Shown here: positions 13,893 through 31,985 of the stretch, one piece after another
Layout: each line of letters begins with the position of its first letter
Numbering within the stretch: position 1 is the stretch's first letter
Assembly (NCBI GenBank): GCA_000091205.1
Contig: AP006497.2
Source: Cyanidioschyzon merolae
Taxonomy: Eukaryota
Strand: one strand, 5' to 3'
DNA: 64,000 nucleotides
Notes under the pieces: model-generated
Databases searched by the model: none
The model's input: the letters and a program-made list of their open reading frames with translations, nothing else
What the model was told of the DNA's origin: nothing
Made by a program: the position numbers and the translations under genes

Positions 13893-16148
13893 ATGGAAGC
13901 ATACCTCTCAGCACCTTCACGACCGAGTGTGACGCTTTCTGAATTCTCTGGTCGCCGGGTTTGCCAGACGAAACGGAACGATTCTCTTCTGGGCGCTCGG
14001 GGGAGGTTTGCACCGGGCACGTGGGAGCGCGTAGTGCTCGGGCGTCGCGGTGGTTCCCGTACAGTCAGTCGTTTGCCTCAAGTGCGTGCAACAGCTACTG
14101 CTGGGGTATCGCTAGTGAAGCCAAAGCAGACGGGGAACGCGTTCGCTGACCTCTGCATCAACAGCATTCGTTTCCTGGCTGTCGACGCCGTAGAGAAGGC
14201 GAACTCTGGACACCCTGGAGCGCCCATGGGTCAGGCCCCGCTCGCGTTTACTCTTTGGGACAAGTATCTGCGCTTTAACCCCAAGAATCCGAACTGGGTC
14301 AATCGCGATCGTTTTGTGCTAAGCTGTGGTCATGGGTCTATGCTTCAGTATGCTCTGCTTTACCTTTATGGATACGATCAACCAACAATGGACGATATCA
14401 AAACTTTCTGTGAATTTGGTTCTTGCGCTACGAGTCACCCCGAGAACTTTCTTCTTCCTGGCGTTGAAGTGACCACAGGGCCTCTGGGCTCTGGCGTGGC
14501 ACAGGCTGTTGGTCTCGCTATCGCCGAAGCGCACCTCGGAGCAATGTTCAACACCCCAGAGGAGAAGCTGATTGACCATTACACCTACTTCATTATGAGT
14601 GATGGATGCATGCAAGAAGGAGTAGCTGCAGAGGCCGCATCTTTGGCAGGCCATTTGGGACTGGGGAAACTAATCGGGTTTTTCGATGATAACAAGATAA
14701 CTTACGATGGACCAACAGACCTTGCGTTTAGTGAGGATGTCGTATCTAGATTCAAATCGTATAACTGGCAGGTAATTAGCATTGCAGATGGAAACACAGA
14801 CATCGACAACATCTCGAAAGCAATCGAGGAGGCGCAAAAAGATCTGACACGACCATCACTAATCATAGTTCCGACAACAATTGGTTTTGGCTCACCAAAA
14901 CACGCGAACAAAAGGACAGCACATGGAGAACCTTTCGGATCTGACGAAGTCAAGGCAACGCGGGAGAATCTTGGATGGAAATATGCTCCTTTCGAGGTCC
15001 CAGAGGAGGTGCTGAAACATTGTCGCCGCAAGATCCAAGAGGGGGCACGTCTTGAACAGGAATGGAATGAGCTCTTGCAGCGGTACAAGAGTAAGCACCC
15101 AGAACAGGCTGCACTATTCGAGCGGATGGTGATTCGCAAGGAGAAGAGCCCTGGTTGGGAAAAGGCCCTCAAGGATTGTGCGGCAAAGACAGGCTCCATG
15201 GCTACGAGGCAAGTCTCCGGCGCAATGCTCAATGCGCTCGCTGCGGTGATGCCGGAGATCATCGGGGGATCTGCAGACCTGGCCCCTTCGAACAACACGC
15301 TCCTGAAGGGCTTTGGCGATTTCTCTCGTAACAACTACAAAGCCAAGAATATGCGCTTCGGTGTCCGCGAGGCAGCGATGACTGCGATCACCGCGGGCAT
15401 CAAGCTCCACAACACTGGACTGTTTCCCTACTGCGCGACTTTTCTGATATTCACCGATTACGCCCGGGGCATGCTCCGCCTTGCTGCCCTCTCCGAGGCG
15501 GGAATCACGTTCATTACAACGCACGACTCCGTCGCCTTAGGCGAGGATGGCCCCACGCACCAGCCCATCGAGCATCTGGCTAGCCTGCGAGCTATGCCGA
15601 ATGTGTACACGTTCCGTCCGTGCGATGCGAACGAGTGCGCAGCTGGCTATGCGCTCTCGATCCGGCATGATGACAAAGTCGTTCTGTTGGCGCTCACGCG
15701 ACAGAAGACGAACAAGCTCGAGACATCCTCATACGATGGTGCCCTGCGCGGAGCGTACGTGGTTTCGGATAATAGCCCTGCGGGCAAGCACCCGGATGTG
15801 ATCCTTATCGGAACAGGCTCCGAGGTGGACGTCGTCGTGGAGGCCGCCGATCAACTACGAACTAGCGATGCTTTGAATGTGCGCGTGGTGTCGATGCCCT
15901 GCATGGAGCTCTTTGAGGACCAGGATGCAGCTTATCAAGAGTCTGTGCTTCCTGCTGCCGTGCCTCGCAGCCGGAGGGTCGTATGTGAGGCTGCCTCAAG
16001 CTTCGGCTGGTCGAAGTATGCGGATCACTTTGTGTGCATCGATCGCTTCGGAGCGTCCGGCAAAGGGCCTGACCTGATGAAGTACTTTGGGATCACGCCG
16101 TCGAACGTAGCGAAGAAGGCGCGAGAGGCTGCAGGAAAAGGCGTTTGA
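13893..16148 (+). CDS. Transketolase-like protein, copy A, with substitutions at catalytic and cofactor residues in aa 145-345 and an N-terminal extension
   Basis: 751-aa ORF, identical to copy B outside aa 145-345. Within that patch 'SMLQYALLYLYGY' has Tyr where His is conserved, 'IMSDGCMQEG' replaces the GDG motif with SDG, and 'ITYDGPTD' has Pro where His is conserved. Confidence 0.8.
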   Translation: MEAYLSAPSRPSVTLSEFSGRRVCQTKRNDSLLGARGRFAPGTWERVVLGRRGGSRTVSRLPQVRATATAGVSLVKPKQTGNAFADLCINSIRFLAVDAVEKANSGHPGAPMGQAPLAFTLWDKYLRFNPKNPNWVNRDRFVLSCGHGSMLQYALLYLYGYDQPTMDDIKTFCEFGSCATSHPENFLLPGVEVTTGPLGSGVAQAVGLAIAEAHLGAMFNTPEEKLIDHYTYFIMSDGCMQEGVAAEAASLAGHLGLGKLIGFFDDNKITYDGPTDLAFSEDVVSRFKSYNWQVISIADGNTDIDNISKAIEEAQKDLTRPSLIIVPTTIGFGSPKHANKRTAHGEPFGSDEVKATRENLGWKYAPFEVPEEVLKHCRRKIQEGARLEQEWNELLQRYKSKHPEQAALFERMVIRKEKSPGWEKALKDCAAKTGSMATRQVSGAMLNALAAVMPEIIGGSADLAPSNNTLLKGFGDFSRNNYKAKNMRFGVREAAMTAITAGIKLHNTGLFPYCATFLIFTDYARGMLRLAALSEAGITFITTHDSVALGEDGPTHQPIEHLASLRAMPNVYTFRPCDANECAAGYALSIRHDDKVVLLALTRQKTNKLETSSYDGALRGAYVVSDNSPAGKHPDVILIGTGSEVDVVVEAADQLRTSDALNVRVVSMPCMELFEDQDAAYQESVLPAAVPRSRRVVCEAASSFGWSKYADHFVCIDRFGASGKGPDLMKYFGITPSNVAKKAREAAGKGV

Positions 16149-16447
16149 GGACGCCGCGGAAGCAGCGGTTCTGTGCCGGGCAAAGATTTTCAAGCGGCGT
16201 TTGCTGCGGCAACGCTCTGCGGAATGGGAACGCTTTGGAAGAGAGTATTCTTGCAGGGTCTAAACACGGCTGTAGTATCCCGCGTGATCACGTTGGGCCT
16301 CATCGTTCTCGTTCGCAAATGCGTTCCGTAGAACGTGCTGTTCTCTAGGGTAACAACGGCTGGGTACGCGGCAGCTGCATCGCCTCTGGGCTGGAGCGGG
16401 TCCTGCGGTTTTGAACCGTTGTCCACCTCGAAGGTTTTCTCCCGCCG

Positions 16448-16963
16448 ATGGCGTCCGGGTTGGAGCACCTCCAACGGGCGCTCTGGAGACGGGGCCTTCC
16501 GTGCTTCAGCCTTGACTGGCTCACGCAAGCACACGAACGTTACCCAGACGTTGAAGAACTCGTAACGTTTGCTCTGGAAACAGTCGACTTTGAGGACCGG
16601 CGCGTCGTCGAGAGAGGCAGCCTTCCTGCGGAGGCACAGCCAGCGCTGCTCTCCAAGGAAGACGGCGTGGTCGTTCCCATACGCGGGGAGCTTCTCGTTT
16701 TTCAGGTGCTGGACGTTGCGGACGTCAGCGCCGCTGAGGAAAAAGCGGATCTTCCAAGCGGGCCCGAGCGCACTCTGAAGCTTCTGCTGACGGACGGTCG
16801 CCTCGAGTTGGCCGCTATCGAGGACGCTCCGATACCGGACCTCGGAACGAGTCTCCCTCGTTGCACGAAAGTCTGTGTGCGGAAACCTATGCTGCTGCAC
16901 GGGTTGCTGGTGCTGCGTCCCGAGAACACGTCCGTAGTGAGGCCTCGGCCGAGCTGCATATAG
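16448..16963 (+). CDS. RMI1-like DUF1767/OB-fold protein, copy A. Possibly only part of the gene.
   Basis: 'LKLLLTDGRLELAAIEDAPIPDLGTSLPRCTKVCVRKPMLLHGLLVLRPENTSVV' resembles the RMI1/TDRD3 OB-fold signature. The region is GC-rich with long ORFs on both strands, so the exact gene model is uncertain. Confidence 0.4.
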   Translation: MASGLEHLQRALWRRGLPCFSLDWLTQAHERYPDVEELVTFALETVDFEDRRVVERGSLPAEAQPALLSKEDGVVVPIRGELLVFQVLDVADVSAAEEKADLPSGPERTLKLLLTDGRLELAAIEDAPIPDLGTSLPRCTKVCVRKPMLLHGLLVLRPENTSVVRPRPSCI

Positions 16964-17641
16964 AAGGAGTGGCTGCGGCTGCCGCTTGGGCGTATCGCAA
17001 ACGAGTTCTTGGTGATGCATCGGGCGAGCAGCTGCCGCGTCCAGCTCGAGTGTCGGACCGAATATCGCCTGTTTGATGATGTATCTGCGTGGAGCTTTCG
17101 AGATGGATACGCTTGTACGAAAAATGATCGTAGGTGTGGCATGCCTGCATGCTCGAGACACCGGCAGGATGCGTTCTACGACTGTGCCTCGGAGGCTCGT
17201 GCAGAACGCTGCCGAGACGTGCACACTGGCGCTGTGGCGCTTTCGGGCTACGGAAGTCTGGAAAGAGCGTTCTCCAAGCTTTGCACAACGCCTATGCCGG
17301 TACCTGCAAGACCACGCTGTGTCGTGAGGCACCCCTGGTTCCCATGGGTCATGCTTCAGAGCGCGAGTGAAGCGCCGCGGATGCTGCTCCATAGCAGAAT
17401 AGGTGCGGTGCTAGATCGAACTAGCGGCCTGATCTAATATGCACGCTGGTGCGTGAAAGTCTTCCATGCACATTTTGGGATATGGAATCGAGTGCGTAGC
17501 AGAAGATTGCGCAAGACTGTTTCGATGCATGCGAGTGCGCACGCTGTGACGCAGCAGGGGATTTGCGAGCCTCGGCTGGCAGGGCCCCCAGCCGGCGTCC
17601 ACGAGGGAATAGCTGAGCTGTCCCGTCTGTGTGTGGCGTTC

Positions 17642-17646
17642 GCAGT

Positions 17647-17685
<39 letters not shown>

Positions 17686-17687
17686 GC
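17642..17687. repeat. (GCAACA)n / (GCAGYA)n hexanucleotide microsatellite
   Basis: 'gcagtagcagcaacagcaacagcaacagcaacagcaacagcagcg'. Copy B (31942-31987) differs by two substitutions. Confidence 0.9.
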
Positions 17688-18714
17688 GCTCGACTCCAGA
17701 GCAAGCGCTCACTGAAGAAACGCCACCGGGTAGGGCATCTATGCAGCGAACCATAATCCTCAGAGCGAAGTCTGGAGACTGGTGTGTGGAACACGGTGGA
17801 TCTGGTGCGGAATGATATCTGCTTCCGTAAATGCCGATTGGAATCGAGACATTTAGGGATCCCCTATAAGATTCAAGGATCCTGCGCTACTGAAGAACAA
17901 CTTGCGGGGACTCACCGAGGATCCATCGTCGTGTCCGAACGATCGCGGCGAAGGATGCAAACGCATGATCTCCCCAGTCACGCATAATGCCACGGACGGA
18001 AGGTGCATAAGATATTTCGATTCCAGTTCTATTCGTGCACGCATGAGCTCCCTAGTCACGCATAATGCCACGGAGTAAAAGTACACAACGTATCTAGATT
18101 CCGGTTTACTTCTTGCGCTTCTTGTTCATACTGTTGCAAGGCGAAATCGTCGGTGTTCGCAGTTATTCACGGGTATAACGCCGAAATTTGCGATACCCTG
18201 ACGCTTACCGGTGGGCGGGAGCCCTCCTGTGGACACACTCGGCGATACTCGGTGCATGGGCTGTAGATCACAGGCGGACGATCGTTAAAGGTCGCTGTGA
18301 TTTTAGTGTTGCCCATACCTCTACGCGTGGAAGTCATCCCCAGAGGGCGGCTCTCGAGCGCGCTGCCCTCGGTGACTCGGAGCGGCGCATGGTCTCCGCA
18401 CTGGTAGCGATGATGCAGGAGCATCACTCGAGCGCAACCTGTGTACGCCCCTCTCGGGCACCAGTCTGCGTAAATCTACCAGAAAAATATTCGATCGTCT
18501 CTGCCGTAGGTGTCTTGCTCGACAGTGCGGTCAGCGCGGTGCATTGGATGCGCGGAGCTGCCCCTGGGATGGTCCGCTTGGTTTCGGGTTGTGCGCGGGT
18601 CTTCCAGTGACCCCTCGCGTCCACAGAAGCATCAGGCCGGTGTCACGTAGAGCGCTCCAGTTGCTGCGAGCCTGTGGATCCTGCACTAGCCGAGCACCGA
18701 CTGGGCGCTCAAGG

Positions 18715-21036
18715 TTACAGCGGGGATCGTCCAGTGTCTGTATCACGGTGGTAGTCGAAGGGCTCATTGAAAACGCATCCAACTTGACCCCGTAGATATC
18801 TCTCCATGAGATCCCTGGTTGAAGCGTTGAACTCTTCCGAAATGGGGCGGCCGAAGTAGCGGCTTTCGTTCAGCTGCTTTCGGACACGCTTTGCGAGCAC
18901 CTTTCCGAGTTCGACGCCCCACTGGTCGAATGAATTGATGTCCCAGATGAAACCCTGGACTGCCGTGCGATGCTCATAGAGCGCGAGCAACTGGCCAGTG
19001 GCGTACGGATCCAGCCTCTGCAGCAGCAGCGTCAGACTCGGCCTGTTGCCAGTCGTCACGAGATGCGGAATCAGCCATTCGGGGCGGCCCTCTGCACGAC
19101 ACTCCGCCGCTGTTTTGCCGTACGCCAGAGCATCTGGCTGGGCGAAAAAGTTCGCCATGAGCTCGTCTGCATTGCTGACCGGCTCACCCTCGATGCACAG
19201 CGGGTACTGGGACTCGATGAAGCCAATAAAATCGCAGGGTACCGTCTGCCCCATATGCAGCAGCTGGAAAAACGAGTGCTGGCCGTTGGTGCCGGGCTCT
19301 CCAAAGTCGATCTCACCGACCGCGTAGTCGACGTCGTCGCCGCGCAGCGTCACGTGCTTACCGTTGCTCTCCATGTCAACCTGCTGGATATGAGCGGGGA
19401 ACTTGAGAAGCGCCTCTGCGTAAGGATGCAGCGCCCGGCTCTTGTAGCCGAGAAAAGACAGGTTCCAGACGCCGAGAAGCCCCATGATCACCGGCAAGTT
19501 CCCCGCCAGCGGACTAGCAACGTCGTAAAAGTTCGCATCAACAGAGCGCGCGCCCTCTAGAAATCGCAGGAACGTGGGGAAGCCGTACTGAATCGAGAGC
19601 GGCAGCGCTCCGACCGCAGAGCACACGGAATACCTACCCCCGACCCAGTCCCAAAACTCAAAAGTGTTCCGCGGGTCGATCCCGAACTTCTCCACCATCG
19701 GCACGTTGCTGCTGCAGGCAACCATGTGGAGCCGCACGACCTCATCCGAGCGCCCCATTTCGGACCAGAGCCATTCGCGCATCGCCCGTGCATTCAGAAG
19801 CGTCTCCGCGGTTGTGAACGACTTGCTCACGATCACTATCAGCGTCTCCTCCGCCGACAGATCCTGCGTGCAGCGCTTGATATCCACAGGATCCACGTTG
19901 CTGAGAAAATGAAGGTGCCGCCCCCGCGCCGCCTCAAACGCCTCCGGATCCGTCCGAAACGCCTCGTGCACAAAGTCTGGCCCCAGATACGAGCCGCCAA
20001 TCCCCACAGCGATGACGCTGCGAAGCGGCTTCCCCGTGGCGCCGCGATGCTCCCCGCTGCGCACCCGCTCGCTGAACTCACGCACGTGATCGAGCACCCG
20101 CCACACGTCACGAACAACGTCCGTACCGTCGACAACAAGGCTTGCGTTCCGCTCCGCGCGAAGCGCCGTATGCAGCACGGCGCGCCGCTCGGTCACGTTT
20201 ATGTGCGCGCCGGACTGCATCGCGCGGATCTTATCCACCAAACGCGCACGACGCGCTAGCGCGAAAAGTAGCTCAATCGTATCCTTCGTCACCCGCTGCC
20301 GCGAGTAGTCGAGGTAGATCCCGTCATACTCAGCGCGCAGAGAACGCACGCGATCGACGTCCTGCATCAGCTCCCGCAGGTGCAAACGATCGATCTCAGA
20401 TGCATGCTCCACCAGCCGTCTCCACTCGGCAGTCTCCGAGATGAGGACGTAGTCGGTCGGCACCGGCAGTGGTGGCGGCGTTTCCGAAGGAAGCCGCCTC
20501 CCAACGGTGTAGCTCCCGCGAACGTCCCCCGCTGTGCAACGCGGAAACGCACGTCTCCGCAAAAGCCCAGCAGACCCGTGGTGCGGGTACAGCGCCCTGG
20601 ATCGGCGCGATCCAGCTACCCCACCCCGAAGCGGCCACCCAGGCACGACAAAGGCGCTCATCAGGCGAACACTCTCCCAGCAAGCAAAGACCAGGTGCAC
20701 ACTATTGCGCACTGCACCGCGCAGCGAGCTTTCAACTGGCGTCCGCTTCTTGGGCGATTCGCCTCCGGCACGCGCGGCAGGCGGGTGCAGCTGCGAGGGC
20801 GCGGCCAACGGATCAGCGACTCGTTGATAGACTTTCACCTGAATTGCGTTCCATACGCAGGTGCGTGCCATCAACTGCTCTTTCGCCGCTGATGAGAGAC
20901 GCGTTCCGCGTGCGTGCCTTAGCAGAAATAAAAAATCTAGGGGAAGGTATGGGCATGGAAGTCGGAGATCAAAGGCGGTCGCCATGGCCGGCTTCTTGAG
21001 GGAAAGGACGAAAGAAATCCTGGTCTCGCCGACCAT
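18715..21036 (-). CDS. Glucose-6-phosphate isomerase, copy A. The ORF start is probably too far upstream.
   Basis: PGI core from about aa 195 ('[51 protein letters not shown]...'). The first ~35 aa of the ORF (20930-21036) are antisense to a TnpB-like element fragment. The true start is likely an internal Met (aa 56 or 126), followed by an Arg/Ser-rich presequence-like stretch. Confidence 0.85.
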
Positions 21037-21413
21037 GGAGCGAAGAAGCGCAAGTGACGAAGAAGAAGAGAGGCACAGGGGCGGCAGGCGAGAAGAGGGG
21101 TTCGCCCGATGAGACTGCGACGAGACTGTACTGGGAGAGGGGGCACGAGATCGAGGAACTCTCGCAATATCGAGTTCATGCAGAGGAAATATAGAGATGG
21201 AGTTCGTGACCTGGGACCTCTATGCCGCCATCAATATCAGGGAATGTGCGGTTCTGGAGACGAGGCCCGCAGAGCCGACGCGATCCAGCATTGTGGGGCA
21301 GCCCCTGAGGCTTGAAGTGCACAAGGCGAAGCTGCAGCCGATGGCAGGGGCTGGTCAGGAACTGCTGGGAGGCGTCTGGGACTGGATATATATTTACCTA
21401 CCATGGTTGTGGA
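20930..21413 (+). mobile_element. 3' fragment of the TnpB/Fanzor-like element, copy 3A. Its terminus is exactly the right boundary of the 7.5-kb repeat.
   Basis: DNA homology to 12470-12957 ('agaaataaaaaatctaggggaaggtatgg...', 'ctcgccgaccatggagcgaagaagcgcaag'). The tail ORF reads '[36 protein letters not shown]' and the end is 'tatatatttacctaccatggttgtgga'. Confidence 0.55.
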
Positions 21414-24400
21414 TTATTGCGCGTGAGGCAGCGCGATATTTCTTCCACCTCGTTGATTGGGCGCTTCTCCCAGCGCGCATACATTCACACCGACGCATTC
21501 GATCACGCACCATTCTCTTCCTCGCCACCCTTCGTTCCCGGTACAATACTTTTCACAAAACGTGTAGATTATTACGAAATTCATTGCGGCACTTTGCACT
21601 GTCGCGGGCATATCGTACAGGACTTTCTGCTGAGTGCGATAACGCCTCCAAGGCTTCTAAGACATCATTGCGTTTGGCCTGCACGTTTCTGGATTATTCG
21701 CCCAGTCATTACTCTCTGCTGAGATAAAGATGAGACGTATGTTAGTAGGTCTTACAGCTGTTGGTTGAAGTCCGATGGTTCACCAACGATTCCTCCAGTG
21801 CGTCGTCGTTTACCACAGGCAGGCGGACTCCTCCTCGAGCCTCAACGAAGCGCTGGTGTATGGAGTCTCTTTCCCTGGCTTCAGGCCGACGCACTGTGCA
21901 TAGCGGAGAAGATTCACGAGGACATGCTTCTGCATTGCTTGATGTTCCACCGTGTCTTACCTCATCTGAGCAGAGGAGCGTTTGGGCTCTCAGTGGGCCG
22001 TGTACCGTGCAAGACGCCCGCGTTTGATGATTTTGGATGCAGCTACGTCATTGGTCTCGAAGGAGGACGCTACGTCTTGTCGTGATGGTGCGAATTCTTT
22101 GTTCCTTCTTTATTTCTTTCCCATACGCATCTATCTTTGCTTTCATTGACTTGTCGCTCCTCCTCCCGTTTTTGCGTTCCTTCGAAGCTTCGGGCCAAGA
22201 GCGCACAATTTCTTCCATGCACTCCAGGCAGTCGATAAGCTCCTCTTCTGCTTTGATGCTCTTCGTGTTGTGCATCAGAAGCATCTACGCCGCCTGTACG
22301 GAGGCGCCCCACTCAATCAAATTGGAAAAAAGCCTCATATCGAGGTGCTGGTAGGAGCGACTTAAAGATTCGATTGGAAAAGTAGAAAATTTCTTCCCTT
22401 CAGGGACACGGTACAGCACCCCAAATGCAGAAGCATCATCCCTTTCTTTTGCTGGTTACTCACAGGCGACAGCTGAATCATTTCTTTGGCGTATTCGTCT
22501 CGGAAAAGCATTCGACGGAGGTTTACAATGCTCCCTCTCTTTCCAGTCGATGGGCTTCGACGAAACGCCGATAACGAAGAGCTCCTTCATGTCGCCCGGA
22601 CTTGAGACCGACTCGTGGTTTTTTCGTTTCAACATCAACGAATACATCACCCGAGGGTGGAAGTGAACGCTGACGTGTTTCAGGCTCGCCGTGCATACTT
22701 TTCGTCCCAAGTGCCTCTTTGTTTTTCTGGAACGCTTTGAGTCTCGCAACGAGTGAAATCCTCGGCATCCGCAAATTTGTTCAGCTGAAAGACCGAAGAG
22801 CGTTCGGCGTCGATGAAAGCTCAGAGCGAGAGAGGAGTACTCGGCATGTACTCTGGAAGAGTGAGGGCATAGAAGGCGGTCGGTGTCAATAGTCTCTCAA
22901 AGAAATTCATCACTTTCACAAGGTCCTTGAAGTGAGGAATGTCCGCAGTCTTGTGCGAAAGGCAAGCATGTTGCTGGAGCTTGCTGAAAGAAATGCATAT
23001 TTACATGCGCAGGATGTGTGCTCCGGCAAGAGCAAGCACGCTCAGATGAATCCCTTTATGAGTGTAGCGTCGCAAAGTAGCGACACGCAAAGCTCCTCGT
23101 TCGCGTAGCTGCCCGAGCGTTGAGGTTCGTACAGCAAGGCGATCCGTCGAAAGGTGGCGACGTTCTCTGGGACGGGTATGCACCTCTGTTCGAAATGCTC
23201 TAGGATTTCTTTTTAGTCCTTAAACAGCTGTTTCCCTCTCTCACATGGTGTGGTTGGGCTGTGTGCCTCTGTTGACGAACCAGCAATTTATTGTCATTCT
23301 CAATTCATCTTTCAACTTTTTCCCTCACGTCTCTTCAGAAATCCGCCAACCTAAAACTTGGAAACCTTGTGCGAAACAAACCCTGGCAGGCCGGGCGGTT
23401 TCAATTGCGGCCTCTAAAGCGACGAGCACCAGTTCGTATTGAGGACAATCCAAGGTATTGACATGTGCATCCGCTTCCCCAGGTCAGTGCCTCGCGGAAC
23501 CGGAAGACGTTCTTCATTTGGCGAAACTATGGAAAATAAGTTCGAATGCATAAAATGATCCATCCTCTGGTCTCTACTCATTACCAACGGAAAAGTATTT
23601 GTGGAACGCGATTTTTCCACGAAGAAGAATATACTGGGGCGAAAATCCGGGTTTGAGGACGAGTTGAGAAATTTCGATATTTGCAAGCTCCCTTCTTGTG
23701 AAGATCTGATGCGCTCTTCGTGGAAAGCGATCGCTGGGATGACTGACGTCCGAGTCTTAGATACTTTTCTCTCCAAACAGAGGAGGTCGGAGCCTCTGAG
23801 AGCTTCTCTCGATTTTGGTACTATGCTGCTATCGAATGCCGTTTCATCGATGGCAGGACGGAGTAGGGGACCCTCCTTTTGAACAGAATCTATTGTATTA
23901 CCCTAGATGGTCAGTTACGTTCTAGAGTGATCTTGTCAACGAGTCTCCAACGAGCAGCCTCGAGTAATTTTTGTCGTCAACCCAGCAGTAAGCGAGACCT
24001 GCTGCGCCCACGACTTGTCTTGAAACATAAAGATAGAAAACTTGAAACATGCATGATTTGAGCACCCAACTCGTAAGGAAGGAGGAAGAAAGGAGGCTTA
24101 TAAATACAAAATCGATCATGATACCGGGTATTTTACAATTGCTTGTTTGACAGCGTCGAGAATCAGCTTGATTTCAGTGACGCATGGAACTCCAGCGGCA
24201 GACTGTCGAAAGAGCCGCTCAGAAATGCCAACCGAGTGTTCTAAAATTAAGTATGAAACCATATGCCCTTATGGCTGATAGTCGAACGTTGACGCTGTAC
24301 ATCTAGAAAGAGTGCATAAAAACGAAAGACAAGAGAAGACCGAGCAGTTCATTATTCCATTGTGTTCGGCATTGGCGGAGGCACAAGCATTCGCTCCACA

Positions 24401-24893
24401 GTGGCAAATCTCGAGCGAGTGCGTTTCTGGAGTTCTTCCACAGGCAAAAAGACCCGACCGCGTGTAACAATTTCCTCTGCTAGAAATAATCGATTACGTG
24501 CGTGGACTCCTCGGTGACCCTGCAGCAGTCGAATTTCTGCGTGCTTCGTGCGTATCGGCGCCCAAAACGCCCTTAGGCTGTGACTGGGCTGGACACGCTA
24601 AGGACTGACACGGGAGCCAGAGGCTGGGATCCAGCCTGGGCAGTTTGGGTTTGCTGGTCGCGTGGAATTATAAGCAGTGTAAATCACTTGTTCGGACTGA
24701 GGTGAGTGCCTTAAGTAACTTGGCTGTTTGCTGAACCAGCTCTCGTGCGTGCTGTTGGCGACTTTGGCTGGGTTGCACAAGCTTGGTGCCCAAGTTCGTA
24801 GCCCCCAAACGCCAGGTTCGAAGTGCACATTGGCCACGGTCTCGGCTTGTTTACTGACTTTGCGCTCTATGAAACCCGCAGTAGCTCAACAGG

Positions 24894-25787
24894 ATGGTCC
24901 GAGGCGAAGCCAGCTCCAGCAGCATGCCACGCGCTTTGAGCATCGCAGGCTCGGACTCGGGAGGCGGTGCCGGCATCCAAGCCGATCTGAAGACTTTTGA
25001 AGCCCTCGGCGTGTACGGCATGACCGTTATCACAGCGATCACGGCCCAGAATACGGTTGGAGTGCAGGCCGTGGAGGGTGTGTCTCCCGCTTTGGTTCGC
25101 GCCCAGTTACAGAGCGTTCTGAGCGACATCGGCGTTGACGCCATAAAGACTGGTATGCTTTTGGACTGCGGCACCATCAACGTGGTGGCAGATACCATAG
25201 AGAGCAGCGAACCAGCTGCCATGGCGCCTCTGGTCGTCGACCCAGTCATGGTGGCAAAGAGCGGCGACCGCTTGCTTGCCGCCGATGCAGTAGCGGCCTT
25301 GAAGACTCGTCTTGCACCGCTGGCAACGGTTCTAACGCCAAACATCCCCGAGGCCGAACAGCTGCTAGGTAGGCGCCTCACAATCGATAGCATGGATTCA
25401 ATGCGACGTGCACTTGTCGAGCTCATGGAGGAGTTGCCTGAAACGCGCGCAGTTCTTCTCAAGGGCGGCCACCTAGACTCCACTGGCAACGTCTGTGTTG
25501 ACCTGTTTAGCGATCGCGTACACGGCGGTCTAACTGAGCTTACACTTTCAAGACTTAGCTCGAGGAACAGTCACGGAACGGGCTGCACCACTGCATCGGC
25601 GATAGCTGCTGGCCTCGCTAAGGGCTACCCCTTGCTTAAAGCAGTTTACCTGAGCAAGCGATATGTGCACGGGTGCATTGAGCATGCCTTGCCGTTGGGC
25701 GCTGGGTGTGGTCCGCTCTTCCACGCACACCTTCAGGCAGCAGATGGTGCTCTCGATGCTAAGCTGAAGGAGCTTATCGGAGACTGA
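24894..25787 (+). CDS. Hydroxymethylpyrimidine/phosphomethylpyrimidine kinase (ThiD/PdxK family)
   Basis: 'SIAGSDSGGGAGIQADLKTFEALGVYGMTVITAITAQNTVGV...DAIKTGML', the hallmark N-terminus of the ThiD family. 297 aa. Confidence 0.8.
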   Translation: MVRGEASSSSMPRALSIAGSDSGGGAGIQADLKTFEALGVYGMTVITAITAQNTVGVQAVEGVSPALVRAQLQSVLSDIGVDAIKTGMLLDCGTINVVADTIESSEPAAMAPLVVDPVMVAKSGDRLLAADAVAALKTRLAPLATVLTPNIPEAEQLLGRRLTIDSMDSMRRALVELMEELPETRAVLLKGGHLDSTGNVCVDLFSDRVHGGLTELTLSRLSSRNSHGTGCTTASAIAAGLAKGYPLLKAVYLSKRYVHGCIEHALPLGAGCGPLFHAHLQAADGALDAKLKELIGD

Positions 25788-26293
25788 GGCGACATCCCAG
25801 CAATCTTTCTGATTGGACTCAGAAGGATTGCCTCGGGCGCTGCAGCTACTTGCCGCGGTAAAGTAAACAGGAGAGAACAACCGTCCTTTCATGGAGCATC
25901 CACGGTGACCGGCCGCAAAGTGTGGGAGTGACTTGTCAGCGTCCCAAAGGTATGAAGGCCTCTTGCGGCTTTAGGCCACGAGTGATCCTCTATAGGCACC
26001 GACAGAAGAACCAACCCTGGACAGGGAGCACTTCATCGAGTTCGCTATTCGAGCAGTCCATTCCTTGCGGGTTTCAGGGTTCTGAATCGCGCGAGGCCCC
26101 CACCGCCCGGTTGCCTCCGACAAGAACCGCTCGCAGCACTGAGGGCCACCCGCGTATTGTTCGTGCTGTAGCGCGTCCCGAGAAGCTCCAGATCCAGCAC
26201 ACAGATGGGGGCATAGAGCGCATGCGCCTCATTCGTGTCATATCCTCGCCTGGAGAATATCTGTACGACACGAACCAGACAGAGCGTGATGTT

Positions 26294-26761
26294 CTACCGG
26301 CCGGTGCTCCCGAAACCCTTGCAGCCGCGTTGCGTTTCCTCCAGCTCGGCCACCTCCACAACTGGTGGTGTCTCGATCCGTTCCAGAATAAGCTGAGCAA
26401 TCCGCATCCCAACTTCGACCTGGAAGCATTCCTCGCCCAGGTTGAAAATCACAACACCGAGGTTCCCGCGGTAGTCCTGATCCACTACTCCAGCGCCGAG
26501 ATCGATACCGTGCTTCAGAGCCAGCCCGCTACGAGGTGCAACACGGCCATACGTGCCGACAGGTACGGCAACTGCTAGGTCAGTGCGGACGAGCGCGCGG
26601 CCTCCTGGTGGAATCTCGACGCTCTCAGCGGCAAAGAGGTCGTAGCCCGCCGCGTGCTCTGAAGACCGGAGAGGCAACGTAGCGCACTCACTCAATCGTT
26701 TCACACGTAATGCACCAGACTCTTGATTGCTTTCCGTTTGGCACATGGTGAACCTCTTCAC
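26294..26761 (-). CDS. dUTP pyrophosphatase (dUTPase)
   Basis: 'AAGYDLFAAESVEIPPGGRALVRTDLAVAVPVGTYGRVAPRSGLALKHGIDLGAGVVDQDYRGNLGVVIFNLG...RIAQLILERI' carries canonical dUTPase motifs 1-5. Confidence 0.88.
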   Translation of the reverse strand: MKRFTMCQTESNQESGALRVKRLSECATLPLRSSEHAAGYDLFAAESVEIPPGGRALVRTDLAVAVPVGTYGRVAPRSGLALKHGIDLGAGVVDQDYRGNLGVVIFNLGEECFQVEVGMRIAQLILERIETPPVVEVAELEETQRGCKGFGSTGR

Positions 26762-28192
26762 GCACTAGCAGCGAAGCAGTAGTACGGAAATGCAAATTCC
26801 CGCCAGATATGTTACCGATGCGCGAGCGCATATGGCCAGATTCATGGGTGGCGCGCGCTCAAGCCACACGAGACCATGTTTGCGTGCCGCGCGCGCAAAA
26901 TGCTACGAACAGCGTCCTAGTCAGCTGTATACTGCGCGGGAAATCATCCCTCAAATAGCTGCCTGAGTCGCGTCCAGTGAACGAGTCGGGAGCATGCTAT
27001 CTTGTGGTCTCGCAGCGCGGGAACGCTAGAGCCGCTGCTGGTGGGGCTGTATACGCTGACGCAGTTATTTAGGTGCGCTATTGTCTAATCGAATGTGGAT
27101 CCCACCGGCTGCACACAAGCACCTGAGGACGAGAGGAGCACCTGCCGTATCCGTTTGAGTACGCATATGTTCCAACAGCGTGAGAATGATCGCACGAAAG
27201 GGAATGGTCGCCAGATTGTGCTAATGACGAGCTGTCTCCGAGTGCTGAGCCTGCCTCGTGCGCCCACTGTAAATCTCTGTTTGCCGCCGGCGCGCCTGAG
27301 GCAACCGCTAGGTGCAGACGTAATGGCCTCGTGATTCCTTGTGGGCATCATCTCGAGGACGCAGGCGGTTTCATACTATTTGCATTCGTTTCCGAGTGCG
27401 CTCCTAGGCGTTTAAACACGGCACTGGCAGGTTGCGCTCTGCGCGAGGCGCCGCTGCAGTTCGTGCTGGCTCGAACGGGCTCGTTTCTTTCTCGCGCAAC
27501 GTGTGGCTACTGCAATTTGTGATTTGTAATTGCTTATTGCTGCATGAAGCCGCGTCCGAGGCATACTCTATGGAACTCGAGCCCGAGCACCGAGAGGATT
27601 GGTGCAAAACTCGAGCGAGCTTAGCAGATTTCGAGCTATACCTTCGTGGCGATGTTTGATGAGGGGACCTGGCATACGTTCCCGCAGCATCAGCTTCTTG
27701 CATAAATGTCCAATGGTTTGAGCATGCAATATCGCCTGTTATCTTTTTATTCTGAAGCAGCACGCGGCGATTGATTGTTGAGTTCACATCGGAGCAATTT
27801 AGGCGCTTGCCTCGTATTTGCGCCGGCTTGCATCTATTTTCAGAAAGTTGGCTTCTTGGGACCCTATAGCATCTGTACAACCGACTCCGCATCAAGTGGT
27901 TTCAGTTTTTTCCCATTGTGAGGAAAACATGCTTGCATTGGATCCGTTTCGGTAATGCATGCCCGGAGGCGCACCTGATGATGCAGCCGCGATTAGCTCT
28001 CGTGCGTTGCGGTCGTTGGCAGGATGCGTATCAACGTGTGATGTTCAAGTTGATCCTTAGTTGTACATAAAATTCTAATTCAGGTCAGCGCAATCGACAA
28101 CCATGCGTTTCGCACGCGTTGACGACGACGACATCAAACATTCATAAGTTTTTGGGGAACGACTTTCAAGAAGCTTACCTTTCTGCAAAATA

Positions 28193-30448
28193 ATGCTCGC
28201 ATACCTCTCAGCACCTTCACGACCGAGTGTGACGCTTTCTGAATTCTCTGGTCGCCGGGTTTGCCAGACGAAACGGAACGATTCTCTTCTGGGCGCTCGG
28301 GGGAGGTTTGCACCGGGCACGTGGGAGCGCGTAGTGCTCGGGCGTCGCGGTGGTTCCCGTACAGTCAGTCGTTTGCCTCAAGTGCGTGCAACAGCTACTG
28401 CTGGGGTATCGCTAGTGAAGCCAAAGCAGACGGGGAACGCGTTCGCTGACCTCTGCATCAACAGCATTCGTTTCCTGGCTGTCGACGCCGTAGAGAAGGC
28501 GAACTCTGGACACCCTGGAGCGCCCATGGGTCAGGCCCCGCTCGCGTTTACTCTTTGGGACAAGTATCTGCGCTTTAACCCCAAGAATCCGAACTGGGTC
28601 AATCGCGATCGTTTTGTGCTAAGCAGCGGCCACGGGTCAATGCTATTATATGCTTTGCTTCACCTCTATGGGTATGATCGTCCAACAATAGAAGATATCA
28701 AACAGTTTCGGCAGCTTGGTGCGGTAACCGCGGGTCACCCCGAGAACTTTCTTCTTCCTGGCGTTGAAGTGACCACAGGGCCTCTGGGCTCTGGTGTGGC
28801 ACAGGCTGTTGGTCTCGCTATCGCCGAAGCGCACCTCGGAGCAATGTTCAACACCCCACAGGAGAAGCTGATTGACCATTACACTTACTTTATCATGGGT
28901 GACGGATGTGCGCAGGAAGGTGTTGCCTCCGAGGCATCGTCTCTTGCAGGGCATTTACGACTGGGGAAGCTGATCGGTTTCTATGATGATAACAAAATAA
29001 CGATTGACGGGCACACTGATCTTTCATTCAGCGAGGATGTGGGTGCACGCTATGAGGCGTACGGTTGGCAGGTCCTGAGGGTTCCCAACGGTAATGAGGA
29101 TCTCGGAGCAATTGAGCAGGCCATCCTCACAGCAAAAAGCGATACAACGCGTCCATCACTGATAATTGTCTCGACTATTATTGGCTTTGGATCCCCTCAC
29201 AAAGCAGACACGCATGATGTTCACGGAGCTGCCCTCGGTGCCGACGAAGTCAAGGCAACGCGGGAGAATCTTGGATGGAAATATGCTCCTTTCGAGGTCC
29301 CAGAGGAGGTGCTGAAACATTGTCGCCGCAAGATCCAAGAGGGGGCACGTCTTGAACAGGAATGGAATGAGCTCTTGCAGCGGTACAAGAGTAAGCACCC
29401 AGAACAGGCTGCACTATTCGAGCGGATGGTGATTCGCAAGGAGAAGAGCCCTGGTTGGGAAAAGGCCCTCAAGGATTGTGCGGCAAAGACAGGCTCCATG
29501 GCTACGAGGCAAGTCTCCGGCGCAATGCTCAATGCGCTCGCTGCGGTGATGCCGGAGATCATCGGGGGATCTGCAGACCTGGCCCCTTCGAACAACACGC
29601 TCCTGAAGGGCTTTGGCGATTTCTCTCGTAACAACTACAAAGCCAAGAATATGCGCTTCGGTGTCCGCGAGGCAGCGATGACTGCGATCACCGCGGGCAT
29701 CAAGCTCCACAACACTGGACTGTTTCCCTACTGCGCGACTTTTCTGATATTCACCGATTACGCCCGGGGCATGCTCCGCCTTGCTGCCCTCTCCGAGGCG
29801 GGAATCACGTTCATTACAACGCACGACTCCGTCGCCTTAGGCGAGGATGGCCCCACGCACCAGCCCATCGAGCATCTGGCTAGCCTGCGAGCTATGCCGA
29901 ATGTGTACACGTTCCGTCCGTGCGATGCGAACGAGTGCGCAGCTGGCTATGCGCTCTCGATCCGGCATGATGACAAAGTCGTTCTGTTGGCGCTCACGCG
30001 ACAGAAGACGAACAAGCTCGAGACATCCTCATACGATGGTGCCCTGCGCGGAGCGTACGTGGTTTCGGATAATAGCCCTGCGGGCAAGCACCCGGATGTG
30101 ATCCTTATCGGAACAGGCTCCGAGGTGGACGTCGTCGTGGAGGCCGCCGATCAACTACGAACTAGCGATGCTTTGAATGTGCGCGTGGTGTCGATGCCCT
30201 GCATGGAGCTCTTTGAGGACCAGGATGCAGCTTATCAAGAGTCTGTGCTTCCTGCTGCCGTGCCTCGCAGCCGGAGGGTCGTATGTGAGGCTGCCTCAAG
30301 CTTCGGCTGGTCGAAGTATGCGGATCACTTTGTGTGCATCGATCGCTTCGGAGCGTCCGGCAAAGGGCCTGACCTGATGAAGTACTTTGGGATCACGCCG
30401 TCGAACGTAGCGAAGAAGGCGCGAGAGGCTGCAGGAAAAGGCGTTTGA
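28193..30448 (+). CDS. Transketolase, copy B (canonical catalytic residues), with an N-terminal presequence-like extension
   Basis: Contains '[19 protein letters not shown]', '[13 protein letters not shown]', '[11 protein letters not shown]', '[13 protein letters not shown]' and '[15 protein letters not shown]', matching conserved TPP-transketolase residues. 751 aa. Confidence 0.9.
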
Positions 30449-30747
30449 GGACGCCGCGGAAGCAGCGGTTCTGTGCCGGGCAAAGATTTTCAAGCGGCGT
30501 TTGCTGCGGCAACGCTCTGCGGAATGGGAACGCTTTGGAAGAGAGTATTCTTGCAGGGTCTAAACACGGCTGTAGTATCCCGCGTGATCACGTTGGGCCT
30601 CATCGTTCTCGTTCGCAAATGCGTTCCGTAGAACGTGCTGTTCTCTAGGGTAACAACGGCTGGGTACGCGGCAGCTGCATCGCCTCTGGGCTGGAGCGGG
30701 TCCTGCGGTTTTGAACCGTTGTCCACCTCGAAGGTTTTCTCCCGCCG

Positions 30748-31263
30748 ATGGCGTCCGGGTTGGAGCACCTCCAACGGGCGCTCTGGAGACGGGGCCTTCC
30801 GTGCTTCAGCCTTGACTGGCTCACGCAAGCACACGAACGTTACCCAGACGTTGAAGAACTCGTAACGTTTGCTCTGGAAACAGTCGACTTTGAGGACCGG
30901 CGCGTCGTCGAGAGAGGCAGCCTTCCTGCGGAGGCACAGCCAGCGCTGCTCTCCAAGGAAGACGGCGTGGTCGTTCCCATACGCGGGGAGCTTCTCGTTT
31001 TTCAGGTGCTGGACGTTGCGGACGTCAGCGCCGCTGAGGAAAAAGCGGATCTTCCAAGCGGGCCCGAGCGCACTCTGAAGCTTCTGCTGACGGACGGTCG
31101 CCTCGAGTTGGCCGCTATCGAGGACGCTCCGATACCGGACCTCGGAACGAGTCTCCCTCGTTGCACGAAAGTCTGTGTGCGGAAACCTATGCTGCTGCAC
31201 GGGTTGCTGGTGCTGCGTCCCGAGAACACGTCCGTAGTGAGGCCTCGGCCGAGCTGCATATAG
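30748..31263 (+). CDS. RMI1-like DUF1767/OB-fold protein, copy B
   Basis: Identical to 16448-16963. Confidence 0.4.
   Translation: MASGLEHLQRALWRRGLPCFSLDWLTQAHERYPDVEELVTFALETVDFEDRRVVERGSLPAEAQPALLSKEDGVVVPIRGELLVFQVLDVADVSAAEEKADLPSGPERTLKLLLTDGRLELAAIEDAPIPDLGTSLPRCTKVCVRKPMLLHGLLVLRPENTSVVRPRPSCI

Positions 31264-31952: not shown

Positions 31953-31985
<33 letters not shown>

What the first reader, a model, noticed from the sequence alone, without database searches (positions are those of the whole stretch)
14320..14930. Mosaic transketolase paralogue: a 610-bp divergent patch in copy A removes conserved catalytic and cofactor residues
The two transketolase genes are base-for-base identical outside aa 145-345. 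Inside that stretch they drop to roughly 60-65% amino-acid identity. Copy B (28620-29230) keeps the canonical residues (SSGH; His in 'ALLHL'; 'GDGC'; 'IDGHTD'). Copy A has Tyr for the conserved His ('ALLYL'), Ser for the first Gly of the TPP/Mg 'GDG' motif ('MSDGC'), Pro for the conserved phosphate-binding His ('YDGPTD'), and 'FCEFGSCATS' in place of 'FRQLG...'. A sharply bounded divergent tract inside otherwise identical DNA looks like gene conversion or recombination from a third, divergent transketolase-like sequence. It is predicted to give an inactive or altered-specificity transketolase-like protein, comparable to a TKTL-type pseudoenzyme.
Basis: partly seen in the sequence, partly recalled or inferred. 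Interest (0 to 1): 0.7.

Follow-up and report, generated by a model that had tools for sequence, protein, structure and literature searches.

The report
Ancient transketolase variant surviving gene conversion
Two neighbouring transketolase genes of the hot-spring red alga Cyanidioschyzon merolae are kept identical by gene conversion except for a small, ancient island that gives one copy a differently built active site, and the same arrangement is preserved in a sister genus, so the odd copy looks selected rather than broken or mis-assembled.

Summary
The window is C. merolae 10D chromosome 15. A 7,515-bp unit holding transketolase, an RMI1-like ORF and PGI occurs twice (13899-21413 and 28199-35713). 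The copies are identical apart from two bases in a microsatellite and 176 differences inside transketolase copy A. These lie in two tracts, 14325-14433 and 14585-14942.

The patch was not recently imported from a third gene. Cyanidiococcus yangmingshanensis has the same syntenic tandem pair, with the same A-type patch in the upstream copy. Patch trees group A with A and B with B (bootstrap 100 and 99). Flank trees group the copies by species (100 and 100). So the patch is old and the flanks are what gene conversion homogenises.

All canonical catalytic and cofactor residues are kept.

The real anomalies are Arg173Cys, Gly181Ser and Ile271Tyr/Phe. Arg173 matches E. coli R91, the salt-bridge partner of D469. 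Ile271 matches E. coli I189, which contacts the ThDP thiazolium. The A patch has dN far below a saturated dS.

Best reading: a selected transketolase isoform with an altered active site. Its biochemistry is untested.

The parts
13893..16148 (+). Transketolase copy A. It is the A-type and upstream copy (BAM81493.1 / XP_005537529.1), probably CMO121C. 751 aa with an N-terminal presequence of about 80 aa.
   Evidence: (PF00456, PF02779, PF22613), and 66 (TIGR00232 820 bits, cut-off 682). The locus tag is inferred.
14325..14433 (+). Divergent tract 1 (aa 145-181). Its 3' part, 14403-14433 (aa 171-181, 'TFCEFGSCATS'), is the A-specific loop just before catalytic His182. It holds Arg173Cys (E. coli R91) and Gly181Ser.
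14434..14584 (+). Homogenised central stretch (aa 182-230) inside the patch. It has only 2 differences from copy B (14495 synonymous; 14559 E/Q). It includes His182 and the GPLG motif.
14585..14942 (+). Divergent tract 2 (aa 231-350). The core that groups by paralogue across genera is 14598-14931 (aa 236-347). It includes the SDG variant of the Mg/ThDP motif and cofactor loop DDNKITYDGP. In that loop Ile271Tyr corresponds to E. coli I189 and His274Pro to E. coli H192. It also holds Pro327, His337 and HGEPFG.
28193..30448 (+). Transketolase copy B. It is the B-type, canonical, downstream copy (BAM81498.1 / XP_005537534.1), probably CMO128C. Its counterpart of the patch is 28625-29242.
   Evidence: TIGR00232 859 bits.
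13899..21413 (.). Repeat unit 1 (7,515 bp): transketolase A, RMI1-N-like ORF, PGI.
28199..35713 (.). Repeat unit 2 (7,515 bp): transketolase B, RMI1-N-like ORF, PGI.
18715..21036 (-). Glucose-6-phosphate isomerase, copy in unit 1. The identical copy in unit 2 is at 33015-35336.
21414..28198 (.). Single-copy spacer between the units. It holds ThiD/HMP-P kinase (24894-25787 +), dUTPase/DCD-like (26294-26761 -) and a 163-aa ORF (27404-27895 -). Its 3' end is the separate upstream region of copy B.
   Evidence: Synteny with Cyanidiococcus.

Best explanation
A tandem duplication of the transketolase-RMI1N-PGI(-ThiD-DCD) block arose in the common ancestor of Cyanidioschyzon and Cyanidiococcus. This was after the split from Cyanidium caldarium, which has one copy at the syntenic locus.

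Since then, interlocus gene conversion or unequal exchange has kept the two units virtually identical within each species. Two short segments of the ThDP-binding (PP) domain of transketolase are the exception: aa 171-181 and aa 236-347. These have stayed distinct in the upstream ('A-type') and downstream ('B-type') genes.

The A-type island is kept by purifying selection. It encodes a full-length, correctly folded transketolase with all canonical catalytic and cofactor ligands but a remodelled active-site rim:
- It lacks the otherwise invariant Arg (E. coli R91) that salt-bridges the stereo-determining Asp469 of the partner subunit.
- An aromatic residue replaces the Ile (E. coli I189) that packs on the ThDP thiazolium.
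- A Pro sits at the E. coli H192 position of the cofactor-binding loop.

Both proteins carry the same presequence, so they act in the same compartment, but from unrelated promoters.

Shown: the mosaic, its age, the concerted evolution of the flanks, the purifying selection and the residue mapping.

Inferred: the A-type is an active isoenzyme with altered acceptor/cofactor handling and/or a more rigid, heat-tolerant cofactor loop, and this difference is what selection protects from conversion.
For: (1) The window is C. merolae 10D. Both genes are in GenBank. An independent metagenome contig, L002, carries the A patch at 99.4-100% identity.

(2) Two Cyanidiococcus assemblies have the same order: TauE ... 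TKT(A-type)-RMI1N-PGI-ThiD-DCD-TKT(B-type)-RMI1N-PGI-ThiD-ABC. Their two genes are identical from CDS nt 1042 to the end. They differ in nt 507-1041. The repeat is at least 9.4 kb at 98.5% identity.

(3) NJ bootstrap. In the patch, (CmA,CyA) gets 100, (CmB,CyB) 99, and all Cyanidiales together 99. In the flanks, (CmA,CmB) gets 100 and (CyA,CyB) 100.

(4) Site patterns. All 41 A|B-specific sites lie in CDS nt 511-541 and 706-1039. The 453 species-specific sites lie essentially outside these segments.

(5) Selection. Patch dN is 0.149 for CmA-CyA, 0.068 for CmB-CyB and 0.277 for CmA-CmB, with dS saturated. The flanks between genera give dN 0.063 and dS about 4. The A-type is about twice as far from the outgroup as the B-type (dN 0.27-0.31 against 0.16-0.17).

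(6) The A signature is shared by both genera: C173, E174, F175, A179, T180, S181, S236, M240, F264, Y/F271, P274, P327, R341, E346, P347.

(7) Conservation in other transketolases. Position 173 is R in 100% of 237 and 99% of 148. Position 181 is G in 100% and 99%. Position 271 is I or L in 100%, never aromatic.

(8) Mapping to E. coli, with all landmarks verified. R91 salt-bridges D469 of the other monomer in the active site (PMC5073344 and PMC3657141). I189 contacts the thiazolium. I189H is more stable but has 40-fold lower kcat. H192P is stabilising and active (PMC5286519).

(9) Both copies pass the transketolase equivalog model TIGR00232. AF2 models of A and B are equally confident (mean pLDDT 87.1 and 87.3). 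The A model has TM 0.95 to plant and algal transketolase.

(10) GC3 is lower in the patch (0.40-0.50) than in the flanks (0.60-0.66) in every duplicated lineage. It is uniform (0.91) in the single-copy outgroup. This fits GC-biased conversion of the flanks.

(11) In a third lineage (contigs L015 and L016) the only two amino-acid differences between two near-identical haplotypes are R173Q and I271F.
Against: There are no expression, protein or activity data for copy A. Published qPCR primers named for CMO121C and CMO128C match both copies.

Loss of an invariant active-site Arg, plus an I189-type change that costs 95% of activity in E. coli, could mean strongly reduced canonical activity.

The A-type evolves about twice as fast as the B-type.

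Among environmental C. merolae-like contigs, 8 of 9 carry a B-type patch. Four of these have a short stretch of copy A's upstream sequence. The one A-type contig has copy B's upstream context. Either these assemblies are chimeric across the 426-bp identical 5' segment, or the A island is polymorphic or lost in some wild strains.

Lineage Y shows no full A-type patch.

dS is saturated, so dN/dS is only bounded, not measured.
Confidence: 0.7

Rival explanations
1. A recent segmental duplication was followed by gene conversion of about 0.6 kb into copy A from a third, divergent transketolase-like gene, giving a TKTL-like dead enzyme.
For: The borders are sharp, and the tracts differ at many synonymous sites, as expected for a diverged homologous donor.
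Against: The 90% cluster holds only the two C. merolae proteins. No third C. merolae or Cyanidiococcus transketolase appears among the homologues. The same A-type patch sits in the syntenic upstream copy of Cyanidiococcus, and the patch tree is orthologous. The patch nests inside Cyanidiales (99% bootstrap), so it is not foreign. Catalytic residues are retained.
Confidence: 0.03
2. The patch is an assembly chimera in the reference genome.
For: It lies inside a 7.5-kb perfect repeat, a typical site of mis-assembly. Metagenome contigs link patch types and upstream contexts inconsistently.
Against: The A patch is recovered independently in metagenome contig L002. Its orthologue is in two independent Cyanidiococcus assemblies at the same position. 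The ORF is intact, with a coding pattern of divergence.
Confidence: 0.01
3. The A-type is a selected but catalytically crippled subunit. It would be a pseudoenzyme or regulatory partner that forms homo- or heterodimers with B. That is possible because the presequence, the dimer-forming Pyr domain and the C-terminal domain are identical. It would modulate flux rather than catalyse it.
For: The invariant R91-equivalent is lost, and an aromatic sits at the I189-equivalent. I189H costs 95% of activity in E. coli. Purifying selection is nevertheless evident. The interface domains are identical.
Against: All ThDP, Mg and catalytic ligands are retained, which is unexpected if catalysis were dispensable. 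It scores well above the equivalog cut-off. E. coli I189H regains much of its activity at 60 C, and the alga lives hot.
Confidence: 0.15
4. Passive escape. The island persists only because it became too divergent for homologous conversion. Copy A is redundant, evolving under relaxed constraint, and is being lost in some lineages.
For: The A-type evolves about twice as fast. Most environmental contigs are B-type, and lineage Y lacks the full A patch.
Against: dN of the A patch between genera (0.149) is far below a saturated dS, and there is no stop codon or frameshift in either genus. Fifteen signature residues are conserved between genera. The same two protected segments and the same homogenised middle stretch recur in both genera. 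Point changes recur at 173 and 271 in lineage Y.
Confidence: 0.1

Closest known systems
Plastid/cyanobacterial-type transketolase (EC 2.2.1.1), e.g. maize 1ITZ and Chlamydomonas 5ND5/5ND6
   Same: Three-domain architecture, about 53% identity, model TM 0.95, and all catalytic His, Asp/Asn metal ligands, Glu and phosphate-binding residues. Copy B is an ordinary member.
   Different: Copy A replaces the invariant Arg (E. coli R91) with Cys, the Gly before catalytic His182 with Ser, and the ThDP-contacting Ile (E. coli I189) with Tyr/Phe. None of these was seen in about 385 other transketolases.
   Same: A paralogue of a housekeeping transketolase with changes in the PP domain.
   Different: From my own knowledge, TKTL1 is defined by a 38-residue deletion that removes cofactor and catalytic residues. 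Copy A has no indel relative to copy B and keeps all these residues. The origin is unrelated.
Concerted evolution of tandem paralogues with a few selected differences, e.g. ATP1A1 duplicates of Leptodactylus frogs (bioRxiv 10.1101/2020.08.04.234435; abstract seen)
   Same: Tandem duplicates are homogenised by gene conversion, while functionally important differences are kept by selection. Flanks group by species and the selected sites group by paralogue.
   Different: Here the protected part is two contiguous islands (about 30 bp and about 330 bp) saturated at synonymous sites, in a metabolic enzyme of a unicellular alga. The homogenised block is 7.5-9.4 kb and includes neighbouring genes and intergenic DNA.
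Engineered E. coli transketolase variants H192P, I189H and D469T (Dalby laboratory; PMC5286519, PMC5073344)
   Same: The A-type naturally carries Pro at the H192 position, a bulky ring at the I189 position, and a broken R91-D469 salt bridge. In E. coli these changes rigidify the cofactor loop and raise thermostability, or open new acceptor pockets.
   Different: The salt bridge is broken from the Arg side (R to C), not the Asp side. The residue at 271 is Tyr/Phe, not His. The combined effect is untested.

Membership tests
Transketolase (TIGR00232 / PF00456 + PF02779 + PF22613) | Three-domain architecture and a score above the curated cut-offs | tested here: met
   Copy A: PF00456 450 bits, PF02779 154 bits, PF22613 124 bits. 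TIGR00232 820 bits against a cut-off of 682; copy B scores 859. Model TM 0.95 to 5ND6 and 1ITZ.
Transketolase (TIGR00232 / PF00456 + PF02779 + PF22613) | ThDP/Mg motif G-D-G...N with metal ligands (E. coli D155, N185, I187) | tested here: met
   D237, N267 and I269 are kept. The first Gly is Ser (SDG), as in 22-34% of other transketolases.
Transketolase (TIGR00232 / PF00456 + PF02779 + PF22613) | Catalytic and substrate residues (E. coli H26, H66, H100, H261, R358, S385, E411, H461, D469, H473, R520) | tested here: met
   All are present in copy A at 107, 147, 182, 344, 439, 466, 493, 544, 552, 556 and 603.
Transketolase (TIGR00232 / PF00456 + PF02779 + PF22613) | Invariant Arg (E. coli R91) pairing with D469 across the dimer interface | tested here: not met
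   Cys173 in CmA and CyA. Arg is found in 100% of 237 and 99% of 148 other sequences. The role is taken from PMC5073344 and PMC3657141.
Transketolase (TIGR00232 / PF00456 + PF02779 + PF22613) | Aliphatic residue (E. coli I189) packing on the ThDP thiazolium | tested here: not met
   Tyr271 in CmA and Phe271 in CyA. The position is Ile or Leu in all others. The role is taken from PMC5286519.
Transketolase (TIGR00232 / PF00456 + PF02779 + PF22613) | Ketol-transfer activity | not testable with these tools
No copy-specific data were found in the literature.
TKTL1-type transketolase-like pseudoenzyme | Internal deletion that removes cofactor and catalytic residues of the PP domain | tested here: not met
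   Copies A and B are collinear, 751 aa each, with no indel. The residues are retained.
Concerted evolution by interlocus gene conversion with a selected island | Flanks more alike between paralogues within a species than between orthologues | tested here: met
   There are 0 differences in 1,200 nt of the 3' CDS within each species, against 270 of 1,200 between genera. Bootstrap 100/100.
Concerted evolution by interlocus gene conversion with a selected island | The island groups by paralogue type across species, at syntenic positions | tested here: met
   Bootstrap 100 and 99. 41 A|B sites are confined to two segments. The A-type is upstream and the B-type downstream in both genera.
Concerted evolution by interlocus gene conversion with a selected island | The island is under purifying selection rather than decaying | tested here: met
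   dN is 0.149 with dS saturated. The ORFs are intact. Signature residues are shared. dN/dS can only be bounded.

The most novel reading that the evidence does not exclude
Thermoacidophilic red algae have maintained a second, naturally re-engineered transketolase active site since before Cyanidioschyzon and Cyanidiococcus split. It has no R91-type Arg to hold the stereo-determining Asp, and an aromatic residue on the ThDP thiazolium.

This site confers a distinct catalytic specificity or temperature/cofactor regime in the plastid. The advantage is strong enough to hold a 0.4-kb island against continuous gene conversion. It is also strong enough to re-create changes at the same two positions (R173Q, I271F) by point mutation in a lineage where the island was overwritten.
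Probability: 0.3. Interest if true: 0.7.

Novelty: new variant of a known kind. Interest (0 to 1): 0.5.

Why it matters
It corrects a tempting misreading. The divergent patch is the old part and the identical DNA is the young part.

It gives an unusually clean, two-genus example of selection holding a small functional island against concerted evolution in a eukaryote with a tiny genome.

It also points enzymologists to a natural transketolase that breaks two rules of the family, the R91-D469 pair and the aliphatic I189. These are exactly the sites that protein engineers mutate to change stability and acceptor range.

C. merolae is genetically tractable, so swapping the patch or single residues and measuring growth, Calvin-cycle/pentose-phosphate flux and heat tolerance is feasible.

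Practically, existing qPCR data for 'CMO121C' and 'CMO128C' cannot distinguish the two genes.

Tried and rejected
- Exact look-up of copy A in the contig index found nothing, although the protein is in the cluster table.
- The search with the 226-aa A patch returned only proteins of at most 396 aa, with a best identity of 64%. It missed even the self hit, so it says only that no short A- or B-type fragments are on record.
- The metagenome scan for a degenerate pattern encoding FCEFGSCATSH found nothing. A control pattern shared by both copies found only 2 contigs. That collection therefore barely samples these algae, and the negative result is uninformative.
- Literature searches for CMO121C/CMO128C, and for gene conversion or transketolase in Cyanidiophyceae genome papers, found no prior description and no copy-specific expression data.
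- dN/dS could not be computed as a ratio because synonymous sites are saturated.
- AF2 models of A and B do not discriminate. The same interface and cofactor loops are low-confidence in both monomers.
- I considered an A-specific redox switch (Cys173...Cys178) and downgraded it. Cys178 also occurs in Cyanidiococcus B and in lineage Y, and lineage Y replaces Arg173 with Gln, not Cys.
- I rejected horizontal origin of the patch, because it nests within Cyanidiales.
- A first Biopython bootstrap run timed out and was replaced by my own NJ script.
Full report
WHAT THE WINDOW IS. The two ORFs translate to proteins that are exactly BAM81493.1/XP_005537529.1 (13893-16148) and BAM81498.1/XP_005537534.1 (28193-30448). 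Both are annotated 'transketolase' on the 902,900-bp chromosome of Cyanidioschyzon merolae 10D. Each has the three transketolase domains and an N-terminal extension of about 80 residues. The extension is identical in the two copies except for residue 2. qPCR primers published under the names CMO121C and CMO128C both map to both genes. Because the adjacent ORF is CMO122C, I infer that copy A is CMO121C and copy B is CMO128C.

CHECK OF THE OBSERVATION. A direct repeat of 7,515 bp (13899-21413 = 28199-35713, offset 14,300) holds transketolase, a small RMI1-N-like ORF and glucose-6-phosphate isomerase. Its ends are sharp. The left end is six bases after the transketolase ATG, so the two genes have unrelated upstream DNA. 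Outside the patch the units differ at only two bases, in a (CAGCAA)n microsatellite.

The divergent region runs from 14325 to 14942 and is really two tracts: 14325-14433 and 14585-14942. They are separated by 149 bp with two differences. There are 176 nucleotide differences, with third codon positions ahead of first and second (102/49/25), and 60 amino-acid differences.

NOT AN ARTEFACT. A JGI metagenome contig (L002) carries the A-type tracts at 100% and 99.4% identity. More importantly, the A-type has an orthologue in another genus, as described next.

THE PATCH IS THE OLD PART. A full-length search found two Cyanidiococcus yangmingshanensis proteins. P0160 has the A signature: FCEFGSCATS, MSDGCM, ITFDGPTD, HGEPLG. 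P0161 has the B signature. Each type is present in both available assemblies.

The genes lie in the same order as in C. merolae. The A-type is upstream, next to DUF8361/adh/TBCA/TauE. The B-type is downstream, before the ABC transporter. The tandem repeat is at least 9.4 kb at 98.5% identity and there also includes ThiD and a dUTPase-like gene. The two Cyanidiococcus genes are identical from CDS nt 1042 to the stop, and nearly so before nt 507, yet they differ from C. merolae at about 22% of those positions.

Neighbour-joining with bootstrap gives discordant trees. In the patch, (CmA,CyA) gets 100%, (CmB,CyB) 99%, and all Cyanidiales together 99%. In the flanks, (CmA,CmB) gets 100% and (CyA,CyB) 100%. 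At the nucleotide level, all 41 sites with the pattern A|B fall in CDS nt 511-541 and 706-1039 (window 14403-14433 and 14598-14931). The 453 species-specific sites fall essentially everywhere else.

Cyanidium caldarium (the cluster of P0162) has a single transketolase-PGI pair in a syntenic neighbourhood, with a B-like patch. No third C. merolae transketolase exists in the protein collection.

The simplest history is therefore as follows. One tandem duplication occurred before the Cyanidioschyzon/Cyanidiococcus split. Homogenisation of the units has continued within each species. Two segments have escaped it in both genera. Lower GC3 in the patch (0.40-0.50) than in the flanks (0.60-0.66) in all duplicated lineages, against a flat 0.91 in the single-copy outgroup, is what GC-biased conversion of the flanks would produce. 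This point is suggestive only.

SELECTION ON THE A ISLAND. Synonymous sites are saturated between paralogous patches and between genera, so only bounds are possible. Even so, dN in the patch is 0.149 for CmA-CyA, 0.068 for CmB-CyB and 0.277 for CmA-CmB. The flanks between genera have dN 0.063 and dS about 4. The A-type is about twice as far from the outgroup as the B-type. The A island is thus faster-evolving but clearly constrained. Both genera keep an intact ORF and share about fifteen A-specific residues. The same middle stretch (aa 182-230) is homogenised in both genera. The first half of tract 1 (aa 145-169) is homogenised in Cyanidiococcus only. The minimal protected core is therefore aa 171-181 plus aa 236-347.

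WHICH RESIDUES MATTER. I aligned both copies to E. coli TktA. I measured residue frequencies in 237 cyanobacterial/algal transketolases and in 149 representatives of 50%-identity clusters.

- Position 157 is Tyr in 56% and 18% of the two sets.
- Position 236 is Ser in 22% and 34%.
- Position 274 is His in only 12% and 7%, and Pro in 7% and 28%.
- Position 145 is variable.

All canonical residues are retained: E. coli H26, H66, H100, D155, N185, I187, H261, R358, S385, E411, H461, D469, H473 and R520.

The real anomalies, shared by both A-types, are:
- R173C. This is E. coli R91, with Arg in 100% and 99% of the two sets.
- Q174E.
- T179A and P180T.
- G181S. Gly is in 100% and 99%.
- I271Y/F. 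This is E. coli I189. It is Ile or Leu in all others and never aromatic.
- S327P.
- K337H/Y.

According to the literature, R91 forms a salt bridge with D469 of the other subunit inside the active site, and exposing it reshapes acceptor binding (PMC5073344 and PMC3657141). I189 contacts the thiazolium ring. I189H raises kinetic stability 8-fold but lowers kcat 40-fold at 22 C, with much of the activity regained at 60 C. H192P raises Tm by about 4 C without loss of activity (PMC5286519).

The A-type thus combines a broken Arg-Asp pair with two changes in the heat-sensitive cofactor loop. It still passes the transketolase equivalog model, about 40 bits below the B-type in both genera. Its AF2 model is as confident as that of B and superposes on plant and algal transketolase at TM 0.95.

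MECHANISM PROPOSED. Shown: ancient duplication, concerted evolution of the flanks, an orthologous and constrained island, retention of the catalytic machinery, and loss of two family-invariant contacts. Inferred: the A-type is a working isoenzyme whose acceptor pocket and cofactor loop differ from the housekeeping B-type. It is targeted to the same compartment but driven by a different promoter. Conversion tracts that overwrite the island are removed by selection. Transketolase active sites are built from the PP domain of one subunit and the Pyr domain of the other, and the Pyr and C-terminal domains of A and B are identical. Any dimer containing A therefore has at least one A-type site, and heterodimers are plausible. 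I put about 0.7 on this overall picture. The evolutionary part is near-certain. The biochemical part is open. A selected but catalytically weak subunit gets about 0.15, and passive escape with relaxed constraint about 0.1.

CAVEATS FROM ENVIRONMENTAL DATA. There are nine contigs 99-100% identical to C. merolae. Four have B upstream DNA with a B patch. Four have 63-102 bp of A upstream DNA with a B patch. One has 7.9 kb of B-side context with an A patch. None has A upstream DNA with an A patch. The 426-bp identical 5' segment cannot be phased by short reads, so these may be chimeric. Alternatively, the island may be shuffled or lost in some wild strains.

A third lineage ('Y', sister to Cyanidiococcus) is represented by contigs L015 and L016. 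It has a B-type patch in the upstream context. The two contigs differ at 7 of 16,220 bases. The only two amino-acid differences are R173Q (CGA/CAA) and I271F (ATC/TTC), exactly the two key sites. By chance this would be expected at roughly 1e-4. Whether these are two collapsed paralogues or alleles is unknown.

COMPARISON AND NOVELTY. Copy B is an ordinary plastid-type transketolase. Copy A is a transketolase by architecture and catalytic residues, but it fails two invariant-contact tests. It is not TKTL1-like, because it has no deletion. The evolutionary mechanism, tandem paralogues homogenised by conversion with selected differences retained, is a known kind; the frog ATP1A1 case seen is an example. 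I found no description of this case in Cyanidiophyceae papers. I rate it a new variant of a known kind, with interest 0.5.

Noticed in passing
window 16190-17392 (-) and 30490-31692 (-); 16448-16963 (+) and 30748-31263 (+): The annotated 400-aa 'hypothetical protein' (CMO122C/CMO361C, minus strand) has no domain hit. The 171-aa plus-strand ORF inside it matches the RMI1 N-terminal OB-fold (PF08585, E 9e-11). That plus-strand ORF is the gene called at this position in Cyanidiococcus and in metagenome contigs. The reference annotation is probably on the wrong strand.
   Followed up: partly
L015 10001-11923 and L016 10001-12415 (JGI contigs Ga0438750_00035 and Ga0531430_00059): In a third lineage of the clade, two 16-kb haplotypes that are 99.96% identical differ in transketolase only by R173Q and I271F, plus one synonymous site. 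These are the two most anomalous A-type positions, here on a B-type background. A further protein (P0280) has R173 with F271.
   Followed up: partly
L002, L003 and L009-L011 compared with window 13797-13898 and 27900-28198: Environmental C. merolae-like contigs join copy A's upstream DNA to a B-type patch (4 contigs) and copy B's upstream DNA to an A-type patch (1 contig). None shows the reference combination for copy A. This is either chimeric short-read assembly across the 426-bp identical 5' segment or real shuffling or loss of the island.
   Followed up: partly
window 15169-15212, 15745-15786, 29469-29512, 30045-30086: Published qPCR primer pairs named CMO121C and CMO128C (supplement of PMC4586181) both lie in the identical part of the genes. 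Each pair matches both copies, so they cannot report copy-specific expression. The CMO124C (PGI) primers also match both PGI copies.
   Followed up: yes
window 8305-9702 and 10385-11782: A 1,398-nt inverted repeat, 97% complementary, with 682 nt between the arms. Each arm holds a 364-aa ORF (8590-9684 + and 10403-11497 -). The ORF is 69% identical to the single DUF8361 gene that precedes transketolase A in Cyanidiococcus. This is another young or converting duplicate next to the transketolase array.
   Followed up: partly
window 7164-8250 (+), 11888-12921 (-), 39457-40575, and partial copies at 20910-21413 and 35210-35714: A dispersed element of about 1.1 kb, with copies about 70% identical. 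The right end of each 7.5-kb repeat unit lies inside a partial copy, and a full copy sits about 1 kb upstream of transketolase A. It may have mediated the original duplication. Its nature (gene or repeat) was not determined.
   Followed up: no
window 14000-22000 and 28000-36000 compared with neighbouring DNA; CDS of both transketolase copies: The duplicated units are more GC-rich (0.55-0.60) than the flanking single-copy DNA (0.47-0.51). Within transketolase, GC3 drops from about 0.66 in the homogenised parts to 0.40-0.49 in the patch. The single-copy Cyanidium caldarium-like gene shows no such dip (0.91 throughout).
   Followed up: partly
window 24894-25787 (+); Cyanidiococcus L005 7019-7930 and 17086-17997: The thiamine-pathway kinase ThiD (HMP-P kinase) lies directly beside the ThDP-dependent transketolase in Cyanidioschyzon, Cyanidiococcus and the Cyanidium-like contig. 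It is part of the repeat, and so present twice, in Cyanidiococcus, but is single-copy in C. merolae.
   Followed up: no
window 17961-18106 and 32261-32406: A 78-bp unit repeated 1.9 times between the RMI1-like ORF and PGI. Several metagenome contigs end here.
   Followed up: no
window 18715-21036 (-): The PGI ORF has about 240 residues before the PGI domain. GenBank annotates the two identical copies with different lengths (773 and 648 aa), so at least one start codon is mis-set.
   Followed up: no
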